Below are positions 23,501 through 26,500 of a stretch of 64,000 nucleotides of DNA, piece by piece. This DNA comes from Pocillopora damicornis (Eukaryota), in assembly GCF_003704095.1 (NCBI RefSeq), contig NW_020846770.1, positions 186,001 through 250,000 on the forward strand, given 5' to 3'. Positions within the stretch are counted from its first letter, which is position 1; every line of letters begins with the position of its first letter. A program made the position numbers.

Positions 23501-26500
23501 CTGACACTTCCTCAAGAATCCAACCCTTCTCTTTGGGAGCGATTCACAGTTATGCAATTTTCTACTTACCAAGATGCTGTAAAGTCTACAACTACCAGTT
23601 TGGCGCCAGCTTTCGCCATTTCCGACTGAAAATGGCCGTCATTTTCTATAACTATTACATTGTCCGATGCCGCCATCTTGACCGAGGAGAAACTTCTTTG
23701 GCTGAGAAGGACTAAAATCGATTTTGAAGTATACCGCTGAGCAAGATTAATGTAGGCGCGCGGAATGTTGACAAGCAAGAACCAAGATGTCTTCCTCCTC
23801 TGTTGTACCAGTGGTTTTATGGGGAAGCACGCCTCCATCACACTGTATCTCGTGTATTATAACAACTTATGATCAGAAAACTGTCGTCACAGGATCAACA
23901 GACGGACAGCTGGGGATCTGGGACTTACGATTCGTGGAACATGGAGAGATCAAAGTAAGGCTGATAAGGGGAATTCTAAGATTAAAATCATTTACGAACA
24001 AGTTTGACGGTTACCATATAAATTATCACCATGTTCTATAATTTGCTCTTAAAATTAAAAGCGGTTTAACTCTGGATTGCATCAGTTCTTTTTTTCGATT
24101 GTTAGTCTATATTCAGAGATGTATTGATCTAGAAAGTGTCAGCTGATCACACACTGGCTACATGTGCATGTACAGGTACATCATGCCAAATTAGCTCAAG
24201 TATACCGAATTGCTGTGGTTGAGATTTTTGTTTTGTTGAAAAATTTGTCCTTGTTTCTTCATTTTAACTAAATTGAAGCCTCGCATAGATCCTTGTTTAA
24301 ATTAAAAGCAAGCTTTGAGCTCTTGATCTGAACTACCCAGGAATTTTCCTCGTTCAGATCCTGATCTTCCTTTCGTCTCTCATACATTATACACGACCCC
24401 TTCGCCAGTGGATCTGAAACATGGCCGTGGGCTTCCATATAGAGTTTTTTCCCTAGACCTCATCCATACTTATCAGAAGGAGAAAATGGAAATGGGGGTA
24501 CTAAAACATGATTGCCATCAAAGGAAATTAGCTTTATTGATCACATGTGAAATTAAATCAGTGACATTACAGTTCTCAGAAATAAATCTAAATTCTGTCG
24601 TTATTTTCCATAATAAATGAATACATTACACACTGTATTTTACTGAATACTTCAGGTCATACCTAGGAACCTTATATTTGCTCATTCAGCAAAAGTCACA
24701 GCACTGGCTAAAGCTACAGATGGATGGGACAATCAGTCCAGTGTTATAAGTGCAGCTGACAATGGGTAAGACACAACAACAAAATTTATACCACAAGAAA
24801 GGCACAAATTGTTTTTGCTTATAGTGAGATTTTCCTGCTTATTTCAAATTTTTAGCAGTCACTATAAGTGACAATTTACGGAGAATTTTCTCAATAGTAA
24901 CTGCTGATGGTTGGAAGTATTTATGTAACAAAAAAATCACATTCTGTTTGCTGATAAGAAGTAAATTGGTGATTTAAGTGATTTTTTTCTCTCAGAGAGC
25001 TGTGCTTGTGGGACACAGATGATGGAATCTGCATTCAAGCAAATGTCATTCCAGGAACACATTTGGCTCTATTGGTATGTACATCATCTGAGAGGTGACT
25101 TACTGATTACCTGAATGAAGATTTGACTTTGACTCATTAACAGGTGGACAATTAATGACCAACTGGCTGACTGACTGACTAACAGACAGTGTGATAGACT
25201 GACCAACTATCTGACTGGTTGACTTATTGATAGAGTGGCTTACTGACCAAATGACTTACTGACTGACTTACCTGCGTACTACTAGCTAACTTACAGATTG
25301 GCTTACTGACTTGGTGGTTTGCTGGTTGACTGGCTGGCCGAGTGACTCACTGACTGAATTAGTCACTGATTTATTGACTGGTTTTTCCTGACTGACTGAC
25401 TTGCTGACTAACTGACTCATTGGCTGACTGACTGACTTACTAAATGACCATCTGACTGTCAACTGAGATGGTGGGCTAATTTGGTATTTCATCTTATGAA
25501 TGCATGAACACTCTAGCACAGTTACCAGAACAAAACATACGATGTTGTGCCTTGCTCAGCTCACATACTTAGCTGAAACTTCCGATATAAACAAATGGCC
25601 ATCTTGGTCTAACTAACTACCAACATACATGTAGTTGACTAGTTGATTATAAGAAACACCTATTATGAGTAAAATATAATTAACAAGAATGACAGCTGTA
25701 TGCTCTAATGTGAGTGCATTTCATTATTATTTTCAGTCTTTCCATGTTAGCATTGGCACAGGGAAAGAATGGCGTGTTGTGTGTTATGGCAGCTATTCTG
25801 ATATTCATGTCCTGGATGCTCTGTCTCTTGAGGTAATTGAATTCAAACTAATTTCATGAGTTCAGTTTAGATTAATGTTGTTCATTGTTAAAGGTATAAT
25901 GGTTATGATATTAAATGTAGCCTTAATAATTCTTCATGTGATTTAAAATCATCATAATTCTTGAATCATGCTATCATTCGAAGACCACAGTTTTTTTATT
26001 ATTAATACAGCCATAGGAATTTTGCAATCTTTAATTTGATATCTTGACTCTATAATTGATAATGACTCTAAATTGTGAGACGAACAATGATTTTTCACTG
26101 TCAGTTACAACTTGTACTCAATAATCTGGCTGCCATTGGTTTAGATTTTGTACACTCTACGTTCTCCATCAGCCCCCAATTGGATCAGTTCAGCATGTGT
26201 CGTGAGACCTGCAAGAAGACCAGGTATAGAAACTACTGTAATGTTATTGTAGTTACTTTAGAGTAATTGGTAAAAGTTAGTTGGTTAGTCTTTTTGGGCA
26301 TCCATGCACATAAGGCCTAATGGCAAGAGAAAGCCATGAATCTTTGTTGGTTGTCACATGGTCAATCTGCTTCTGAGTCCAGCCTCTGTCCTTCATTTCC
26401 CTTTCTACAGTTCTCCAAGTGTCCCTTCAAGAGTCTTTATGAGAAACTGATATAATTGGCAAATGTAATAATGGATTGCATTTTTGATACAATTACTGAC

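What the first reader, a model, noticed from the sequence alone, without database searches (positions are those of the whole stretch)
23570..23954. TXNL1-WDR7 head-to-head pair with only 110 bp between start codons, the same arrangement as in human
Seen: ATGs at 23676 (-) and 23787 (+), leaving almost no room for two 5' UTRs and a promoter, so transcripts may overlap or start very close together. Known: human TXNL1 and WDR7 are adjacent and divergently transcribed on 18q21. Inference: a bidirectional promoter linkage retained since the cnidarian-bilaterian ancestor, coupling a proteasome-associated thioredoxin with a V-ATPase regulator.
Basis: partly seen in the sequence, partly recalled or inferred. 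Interest (0 to 1): 0.65.

Follow-up and report, generated by a model that had tools for sequence, protein, structure and literature searches.

The report
Coral TXNL1–WDR7 head-to-head gene pair
Two ordinary housekeeping-type genes of a Pocillopora-like coral, TXNL1 and WDR7, start back to back only 110 bases apart and probably share one small promoter; people have the same neighbours in the same orientation, which makes this one more example of a well-known class of anciently linked gene pairs.

Summary
ATG 23676 (-) and ATG 23787 (+) are 110 nt apart. They are the annotated starts of thioredoxin-like protein 1 (9 coding exons, 23676 to 17294) and WD repeat-containing protein 7 (about 26 exons, 23787 to 40427) of a Pocillopora-type coral.

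Both identities hold when tested exon by exon: Trx then PITH domains, a match to solved TXNL1, and 41-45% identity over full length to echinoderm and vertebrate WDR7.

The spacer lies in a CpG-normal island (o/e 0.83) between CpG-depleted gene bodies (about 0.1). The TXNL1 ATG sits in the window's only exact AAGATGGCGGC, a YY1-type, TSS-proximal motif. A compact bidirectional promoter is therefore the best reading, but no transcription start was mapped.

Paper passages support adjacency and divergent orientation in human. They also put the canonical human TXNL1 start about 12.5 kb from the WDR7 promoter, so the spacing is not the same. One other coral (Oculina) has consecutive locus tags for the two genes. 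No other phylum could be checked.

A second pair of this kind (351 nt) lies in the same window, and nearly 600 ancient linked pairs are already published. This is ordinary, and probably a new example of a known kind. Functional coupling is unsupported.

The parts
17294..23676 (-). TXNL1 (thioredoxin-like protein 1) coding span, 9 coding exons. Approximate exons: 23676-23569, 21584-21456, 20612-20433, 19872-19747, 19037-18963, 18829-18734, 18208-18125, 17630-17517, 17320-17297, then stop TAA at 17296-17294.
   Evidence: tblastn of database protein P0026 (thioredoxin-like protein 1, Pocillopora damicornis) places aa 1-280 collinearly. The last 8 residues plus TAA were found at 17320-17294 behind a ...ttcttgtcag acceptor. 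Pfam by exon gives Thioredoxin for exons 1-3 and PITH for exons 4-8, in profile order. The PITH exon matches solved TXNL1 chains 1wwy_A, 9e8o_u and 12bm_g at E about 2e-12.
23569..23676 (-). TXNL1 coding exon 1 (36 codons), followed by a GTAAGT donor.
   Evidence: (100% identity to aa 1-36 of P0026).
23669..23679 (-). AAGATGGCGGC, a YY1-type motif that contains the TXNL1 start codon.
   Evidence: It is the only exact copy in the 64 kb on either strand. With up to 1 mismatch there are 2 matches against 0.46 expected. A passage in PMC4669652 says the motif AAgATGGCggcg binds YY1. A passage in PMC8384218 says the YY1 motif is over-represented just downstream of human transcription starts.
23677..23786 (.). 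110-nt spacer between the two start codons. It must hold, or be overlapped by, both 5' UTRs and the core promoter(s).
   Evidence: No repeats were found in it and no Rfam family matched it.
23401..24150 (.). CpG-normal island (o/e 0.83, 26 CpG in 750 nt) covering both first exons and the spacer, flanked by CpG-depleted gene bodies.
   Evidence: TXNL1 body without the intron-1 transposon: o/e 0.135. WDR7 1-kb bins from 25 to 28 kb: 0.09-0.20. Whole window: 0.715.
23787..23954 (+). WDR7 coding exon 1 (56 codons), followed by a GTAAGG donor.
   Evidence: 100% identity to the N-terminus of P0002 (WD repeat-containing protein 7, Pocillopora verrucosa)..
23787..40427 (+). WDR7 (rabconnectin-3 beta family) coding span, about 26 coding exons. 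It crosses one N run at 40077-40125, which was left untouched.
   Evidence: tblastn places P0002 aa 1-1493 collinearly from 23787 to 40424. Pfam gives WD40 on 4 exons and WDR72_alpha-sol on exon 35409-35648. P0002 is 41-45% identical over 100% of its length to echinoderm and vertebrate WDR7.

Best explanation
This is the shared 5' end of the coral orthologues of TXNL1 (minus strand) and WDR7 (plus strand).

The most likely mechanism is one compact, TATA-less, unmethylated promoter region of a few hundred bases at about 23.4-24.15 kb. It would fire in both directions and give both mRNAs very short 5' UTRs. The TXNL1 transcript probably starts some 10-30 nt upstream of its ATG, because that ATG lies inside a YY1-type motif, which in human promoters sits just downstream of the transcription start. 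The WDR7 start would then lie within the remaining roughly 100 nt, or the two transcripts overlap slightly.

The adjacency and orientation are most likely inherited from the cnidarian-bilaterian ancestor. That makes the pair a conserved ancient microsyntenic pair of the 5'-5' class. In human the spacing has loosened to about 12.5 kb for the canonical TXNL1 transcript.

Shown: gene identities, start codons, the 110-nt spacing, the CpG pattern and the presence of the motif.
Inferred: a shared promoter, the positions of the transcription starts, the methylation state and ancestral retention.
For: Identity and starts:
-.

Promoter island:
- CpG o/e is 0.83 across 23401-24150. It is 0.135 in the TXNL1 body and 0.09-0.20 in the first 4 kb of WDR7.
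- From established knowledge (recalled), CpG depletion marks historically germline-methylated invertebrate gene bodies, and promoters escape it.

Motif:
- The window's only exact AAGATGGCGGC lies over the TXNL1 ATG.
- The core AANATGGCG occurs 4 times against 1.15 expected; 2 of 100 shuffles reach 4. Three of the 4 copies lie in the two divergent-pair start regions.
- Passages link the motif to YY1 and to positions just downstream of the transcription start.

The same architecture recurs at 44991(-)/45343(+), with a CpG peak (o/e 1.01) and an inverted pair of the core motif.

Ancestry:
- Oculina patagonica names the two genes ACROYT_G008184 and ACROYT_G008185, on contigs of the same length. 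The Desmophyllum pertusum pair also shares a contig length.
- Human adjacency and divergent orientation come from passages.
- The abstract of PMC3514665 reports nearly 600 ancient pairs. Its passages report that 54.8% of them in human are 5'-5'.
- Inference: a given coral neighbour pair would be adjacent in human by chance about 1 time in 10,000.
Against: - No transcription start, RNA or methylation data could be consulted.
- The motif overlaps a Kozak context plus Met-Ala-Ala codons. Translation and coding constraints alone could produce it.
- An acceptor-like ttttagtccttctcag lies about 30 nt upstream of the TXNL1 ATG on the minus strand. An upstream non-coding exon, and hence overlapping rather than shared starts, is therefore possible.
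- The canonical human starts are about 12.5 kb apart, so a tight promoter is not what has been conserved.
- Apart from the one sea-anemone gene noted below, no lineage between corals and vertebrates was tested.
- In one search the only sea-anemone or hydrozoan TXNL1 information is absent, so even within Cnidaria adjacency is shown only for stony corals.
- The main texts of the searchable library never mention this pair as linked.
Confidence: 0.7

Rival explanations
1. Overlapping starts instead of a shared promoter. One or both genes begin on an upstream non-coding exon inside the partner gene. The 5' ends would then be antisense-overlapping transcripts, each with its own core promoter.
For: - 110 nt is very tight for two UTRs plus a promoter.
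- A pyrimidine-rich ...ttttagtccttctcag acceptor-like site lies about 30 nt upstream of the TXNL1 ATG.
- The CpG-normal island reaches about 350 nt into WDR7 intron 1 and about 170 nt beyond TXNL1 exon 1.
- In human, a probe next to the WDR7 start is annotated to TXNL1 as well. This suggests a TXNL1 transcript that starts at the WDR7 promoter.
Against: - The YY1-type motif at the ATG fits a start just upstream of it.
- No pyrimidine tract or acceptor precedes the WDR7 ATG.
- The database models for both genes begin their coding sequence in these exons. Their UTRs could not be seen.
Confidence: 0.2
2. The linkage is kept for another reason. WDR7 is a bystander gene in an ancient ONECUT regulatory block, and TXNL1 simply rides along at the block's edge. 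No co-regulation of the two genes would be required.
For: A passage in PMC7530604 names ONECUT2/WDR7 (chromosome 18) and ONECUT1/WDR72 (chromosome 15) as an ancient regulatory-block pair retained in two copies. The loosened human spacing of about 12.5 kb fits weak constraint on the promoter itself.
Against: - No homeodomain signature occurs in any of the six reading frames of the 64 kb. ONECUT is therefore not within 24 kb downstream of WDR7 or 17 kb beyond TXNL1 here, N runs aside.
- TXNL1 lies on the 5' side of WDR7, where a break would not separate intronic enhancers from a downstream target.
- The coral spacing is promoter-tight.
Confidence: 0.12
3. Coincidence. The pair became neighbours independently in corals and in vertebrates.
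For: Only two distant end points, stony corals and human, are documented here. Intermediate lineages were not examined.
Against: By inference, chance adjacency of two named genes is of the order of 1 in 10,000, and lower still with matching divergent orientation. Conserved 5'-5' pairs are a large documented class.
Confidence: 0.07

Closest known systems
Conserved ancient microsyntenic pairs of the 5'-5' co-regulated class (Irimia et al. 2012, PMC3514665), for example HSPD1-HSPE1
   Same: Two unrelated genes that are divergently transcribed and are neighbours in both a cnidarian and human. The intergenic region in the coral is very short, which is the signature of a bidirectional promoter.
   Different: In human the canonical starts are about 12.5 kb apart, not under 1 kb as for HSPD1-HSPE1. 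Co-expression was not tested.
Human TXNL1-WDR7 locus at 18q21
   Same: Same two gene families, adjacent, with TXNL1 on the minus strand and WDR7 on the plus strand, head to head. An unmethylated CpG probe (beta 0.03) at the WDR7 start is annotated to both genes.
   Different: The spacing differs: about 12.5 kb from the canonical TXNL1 start to the WDR7 promoter probe in human, against 110 nt between ATGs in the coral. Vertebrates also carry a second paralogue, WDR72, linked to ONECUT1 rather than to a TXNL1 copy. No human sequence was compared.
Mammalian CpG-island bidirectional promoters with downstream YY1 motifs
   Same: No obvious TATA box, a CpG-normal island between two genes, and a YY1-type motif directly at or after the presumed start.
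   Different: YY1 binding in corals is untested. The motif here coincides with the start codon and the Met-Ala-Ala codons, so it may be a coding or Kozak by-product.

Membership tests
TXNL1 (thioredoxin-like protein 1) | N-terminal thioredoxin domain with a WCGPC active site | tested here: met
   Exons 1-3 match Pfam Thioredoxin profile positions 2-29, 25-62 and 64-101 of 103. Only exon 2 passes the curated cut-off on its own. W ends exon 1, and CGPC opens the exon-2 match.
TXNL1 (thioredoxin-like protein 1) | C-terminal PITH (DUF1000) domain on the same polypeptide | tested here: met
   Exons 4-8 match the PITH profile at positions 8-55, 56-80, 68-110, 113-137 and 134-173 of 176, in order; 3 of the 5 pass the cut-off alone. 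Exon 4 matches solved TXNL1 chains at E = 1.8e-12 to 2.4e-12. The exons map collinearly on the 288-aa database TXNL1.
TXNL1 (thioredoxin-like protein 1) | Association with the 26S proteasome | not testable with these tools
   PDB molecule names show TXNL1 in 12 entries sharing one sequence, but nothing was tested for the coral protein.
WDR7 / rabconnectin-3 beta | Full-length collinear similarity to vertebrate WDR7 (WD40 propellers, then an alpha-solenoid) | tested here: met
   The database protein, which is 100% identical over exon 1, is 41-45% identical over 100% of its length to echinoderm and vertebrate WDR7. Among the 120 hits listed, every descriptive name is WDR7 or generic, and none names another WD family. 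WD40 hits fall on 4 of 10 exons and WDR72_alpha-sol on 1 (21.2 bits against a cut-off of 20). The other 5 of 10 exons match no family.
WDR7 / rabconnectin-3 beta | One-to-one orthology with WDR7 rather than WDR72 | tested here: inconclusive
   No WDR72 sequence was among the 120 hits listed, so no tree was built. PMC7530604 treats WDR7 and WDR72 as duplicates from the vertebrate genome duplications. That makes the coral gene co-orthologous to both.
WDR7 / rabconnectin-3 beta | Binding to DMXL-type rabconnectin-3 alpha and regulation of V-ATPase | not testable with these tools
   No solved structure matches two of the gene's exons. No binding test was run.
Bidirectional promoter (divergent genes with starts under 1 kb apart) | Divergent orientation with under 1 kb between transcription starts | tested here: inconclusive
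   The orientation is met and the ATGs are 110 nt apart. Unless a UTR intron exists, the starts must therefore be under 110 nt apart or overlap. The starts themselves were not mapped.
Bidirectional promoter (divergent genes with starts under 1 kb apart) | CpG-rich, unmethylated island spanning both starts | tested here: met
   CpG o/e is 0.83 at 23401-24150, against 0.09-0.20 in the flanking gene bodies. The methylation state is inferred from this, not measured.
Bidirectional promoter (divergent genes with starts under 1 kb apart) | Correlated expression of the two genes | not testable with these tools
   No expression data were available.
Conserved ancient microsyntenic pair | Adjacency in several independent animal lineages | tested here: inconclusive
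   Met for this coral, for Oculina by consecutive locus tags and for human by paper passages. No other phylum could be examined.

The most novel reading that the evidence does not exclude
TXNL1 and WDR7 have been driven from one bidirectional promoter without interruption for more than 600 million years because their products act together. TXNL1 would act as a redox sensor on endocytic Rab5/RabGDI and at the proteasome. WDR7 (rabconnectin-3 beta) would act on V-ATPase assembly, so that endosome acidification and redox or proteolytic control are co-dosed. The human TXNL1 transcript that reaches the WDR7 CpG island would be the remnant of that ancestral promoter.
Probability: 0.07. Interest if true: 0.5.

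Novelty: new member of a known kind. Interest (0 to 1): 0.22.

Why it matters
If the pair proves to be linked across many phyla, it adds one more well-defined example to the catalogue of ancient 5'-5' gene pairs. It would also offer a very small (about 300 bp) natural bidirectional promoter from a reef-building coral, which could be useful as a compact housekeeping driver for cnidarian transgenesis.

The case also shows that what is conserved between coral and human is the neighbourhood and the orientation, not the tight spacing. It does not open a new biological question. Both genes are already annotated in public coral genomes, and the class of phenomenon has been described in depth.

Tried and rejected
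- PDB sequence searches with both first exons returned only generic WD40 hits (462) and thioredoxin hits (48), so they do not help with orthology. Two WDR7 exons found no solved relative.
- The listing of cluster members was meant to supply accession numbers as a proxy for gene order in Oculina, Desmophyllum, Nematostella and Acropora.
- Literature searches for the pair found nothing on gene linkage. TXNL1 + WDR7 + bidirectional gave 3 papers, none about the locus architecture. TXNL1 + WDR7 + synteny gave 0. Microsynteny with either gene gave only the ONECUT-WDR7 block and an unrelated TXNL1 citation. TXNL1 + 'bidirectional promoter' gave 1 unrelated paper. WDR7 + 'bidirectional promoter' gave 17; the one I opened concerned WDR79.
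- A PMC id recalled from memory for Irimia et al. 2012 opened an unrelated paper. The DOI gave the right one.
- A WDR7/WDR72 tree was not built because no WDR72 sequence was among the listed hits.
- The bacterial promoter/terminator scanner, the genome-contig collection (bacteria and archaea only) and the phage, plasmid and E. coli collections cannot inform on a coral locus and were not used.
- No complex prediction was run, because I do not claim that the two proteins bind.
- The window's exons were never joined into a spliced model. That step was left out by instruction.
- Inr, TCT and DRE-like readings of the spacer (a pyrimidine run TTTCTCCTC and the palindrome AAAATCGATTTT) were considered. 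I dropped them as untestable without start-site or comparative data.
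Full report
**1. The observation**

One search shows ATG at 23787-23789 on the plus strand. It also shows CAT at 23674-23676, which is an ATG starting at 23676 on the minus strand. Exactly 110 nt (23677-23786) separate them.

- The plus frame has a stop at 23769-23771, and 23787 is its first ATG.
- The plus exon reads MSSSSVVPVVLWGSTPPSHCIS... and ends at 23954 before GTAAGG.
- The minus exon reads MAASDNVIVIENDGHFQSEMAKAGAKLVVVDFTASW and ends at 23569 before GTAAGT.
- The minus frame is formally open upstream to 23856, with one more in-frame ATG. 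That start is therefore fixed by homology and not by a stop.

**2. What the two genes are**

Full-length comparisons used database proteins that the searches returned.

Minus-strand gene:
- Eight exon translations hit Pfam Thioredoxin (exons 1-3) and then PITH (exons 4-8), in profile order. Four of the eight pass the curated cut-offs on their own.
- A search with exon 3 found 6 proteins among 16 candidates. The best, at 98% identity, is 'thioredoxin-like protein 1 [Pocillopora damicornis]', 288 aa.
- tblastn places residues 1-280 of that protein collinearly from 23676 down to 17517. The last eight residues plus TAA lie at 17320-17294.
- The first PITH exon matches solved TXNL1 chains (1wwy_A, 9e8o_u, 12bm_g) at E about 2e-12.

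Plus-strand gene:
- Ten exon translations gave WD40 on four exons, WDR72_alpha-sol on one and nothing on five.
- A search with exon 1 found 24 proteins among 32 candidates. The best, at 100% identity, is 'WD repeat-containing protein 7 [Pocillopora verrucosa]', 1493 aa.
- That protein maps collinearly from 23787 to 40424 in about 26 pieces.
- It is 41-45% identical over its whole length to echinoderm and vertebrate WDR7. Among the 120 best of 528 hits, no descriptive name points to another WD family.
- Start positions are conserved in 7 of 7 cnidarian WDR7 models and 6 of 6 TXNL1 models.

One refinement applies. Vertebrates have two paralogues, WDR7 and WDR72, so the coral gene is co-orthologous to both. 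No tree was built, because no WDR72 sequence was among the listed hits.

**3. The spacer and its surroundings**

CpG observed/expected values:

| Region | CpG o/e |
|---|---|
| Whole window | 0.715 |
| TXNL1 body without the intron-1 transposon | 0.135 |
| WDR7, 1-kb bins from 25 to 28 kb | 0.09-0.20 |
| 23401-24150 (both first exons plus spacer) | 0.83 |

Established knowledge (recalled) holds that CpG depletion marks historically germline-methylated invertebrate gene bodies. On that basis the pattern is an unmethylated promoter island between two methylated transcription units.

The TXNL1 ATG lies inside AAGATGGCGGC.
- This is the only exact copy of that 11-mer in the 64 kb. With up to one mismatch there are 2 matches against 0.46 expected, and 6 of 100 shuffles reach 2.
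- A passage in PMC4669652 says the motif binds YY1.
- A passage in PMC8384218 says the YY1 motif is over-represented just downstream of human transcription starts.
- The core AANATGGCG occurs 4 times against 1.15 expected, and 2 of 100 shuffles reach 4. Three copies lie at divergent-pair starts and one lies in a WDR7 intron.
- Caveat: the motif equals a good Kozak context plus Met-Ala-Ala codons. It may owe nothing to transcription.

No repeat, tRNA or Rfam family lies in the spacer.

**4. How it most likely works**

The best reading is one compact, TATA-less, unmethylated promoter region that fires both ways and gives very short 5' UTRs. TXNL1 probably starts 10-30 nt upstream of its ATG.

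The main rival is that one gene uses an upstream non-coding exon, so that the 5' ends overlap. An acceptor-like ttttagtccttctcag lies about 30 nt upstream of the TXNL1 ATG. Only start-site mapping can decide between the two.

**5. Comparison with human and other animals**

No human sequence was compared. Three paper passages carry the evidence:
- PMC12062505 places a CpG at hg19 chr18:54,228,216 'upstream of WDR7 and downstream of TXNL1', 77,606 bp from the TXNL1 start. That puts TXNL1 on the minus strand with its start near 54,305,822, and WDR7 on the plus strand beyond it.
- PMC4868023 lists TXNL1 and WDR7 consecutively.
- PMC6207925 lists probe cg04099673 at 54,318,390, with beta 0.03, as 'WDR7; TXNL1'.

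Adjacency and divergent orientation are thus supported. The canonical starts, however, are about 12.5 kb apart, not about 100 bp. The double annotation of the probe suggests a TXNL1 transcript that reaches the WDR7 island. My recollection of such a variant comes from no call.

Within corals, Oculina patagonica names the two genes ACROYT_G008184 and ACROYT_G008185, on contigs of the same length. The Desmophyllum pair also shares a contig length.

Nothing between corals and vertebrates could be examined.

By inference, chance adjacency of two named genes in a second genome is about 1 in 10,000. Ancestral retention is therefore likely even on two end points.

**6. What is already known**

Irimia et al. 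2012 (PMC3514665) reported nearly 600 ancient linked pairs (abstract). They found 54.8% of them in 5'-5' orientation in human and 12.5% of those with under 1 kb between the genes (passages). Their main text names neither gene. Their supplementary list, and that of PMC7530604, could not be seen and may include the pair.

PMC7530604 names WDR7 as the bystander gene of an ancient ONECUT block. I found no homeodomain signature in any frame of this window, so ONECUT is not within these 64 kb.

Searches for the pair with 'bidirectional', 'synteny', 'microsynten' or 'bidirectional promoter' found no statement about its linkage.

**7. Verdict**

The genes, the orientation and the human neighbourhood are right. 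'The same arrangement' overstates the similarity in spacing. A shared promoter and deep retention are likely but not shown. Functional coupling is speculation; the only thread is a cited report that TXNL1 interacts with Rab5 and RabGDI in endocytosis (reference list and passage in PMC5722932).
- The same window holds a second tentative divergent pair with 351 nt between ATGs, a CpG peak and the same motif in inverted duplicate. This architecture is therefore routine in this genome.
- Interest is low. This is at most a new, unnamed member of a well-described class.

Noticed in passing
window 44989-45348: A second tentative head-to-head pair. An LRR-domain gene starts at ATG 44991 (-), reading MNPIVVDPNNPG.... 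A FOP/LisH-type gene starts at ATG 45343 (+), reading MATVNELKS, then a GT donor, then VLKETLENRGVLGQIRARV.... Between the ATGs lie 351 nt. CpG o/e is 1.01 at 45-46 kb, between depleted bodies (0.12-0.19). An inverted pair of AAAATGGCG lies at 45330-45338 (-) and 45340-45348 (+), and the second copy contains the FOP-type ATG. The starts were read from the sequence only.
   Followed up: partly
window 24400-40427: CpG depletion in WDR7 is confined to its first 4 kb or so (1-kb bins 25-28 kb: o/e 0.09-0.20). From 28 kb to the end of the gene, o/e is 0.73-1.19. The reason for this sharp internal boundary is unexplained. It could be 5'-biased methylation or an internal start. An AACATGGCG copy lies at 37006-37014 (-) in an intron bin with o/e 1.19.
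   Followed up: no
window 21680-22598: A roughly 919-bp element in TXNL1 intron 1 with 174-nt terminal inverted repeats (94% complementary), carrying a weak THAP-like fragment. It has normal CpG content inside an otherwise depleted gene, so it is probably a younger DNA-transposon relic.
   Followed up: partly
window 10278-11264 (-) and 15222-16241 (+): Two paralogous single-ORF genes of the endonuclease/exonuclease/phosphatase family in divergent orientation (Pfam E about 1.7e-13 each). A one-mismatch copy of the YY1-type motif lies at 14057-14067 (-), in the CpG-normal stretch between them.
   Followed up: partly
window 59869-60138 (-) and 63711-63980 (+): Near-identical chitin-synthase exons (Pfam Chitin_synth_2) in inverted orientation. 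They flank a stretch with a reverse-transcriptase fragment (61870-62466) and several N runs. This could be a real inverted duplication or an assembly artefact. The N runs were not touched.
   Followed up: no
window 6286-7242 (-): An intronless rhodopsin-family GPCR ORF of 318 aa (7tm_1, E = 4e-20).
   Followed up: no
window 49064-50214 (-): Exons encoding a u-PAR/Ly-6 three-finger domain and a fibronectin type II domain lie side by side.
   Followed up: no
window 4830-4902 (-): A marginal Rfam tRNA match (29.6 bits against a gathering score of 29) that ARAGORN does not call. It is probably a tRNA-derived repeat or pseudogene next to reverse-transcriptase fragments at 1716-2166.
   Followed up: partly
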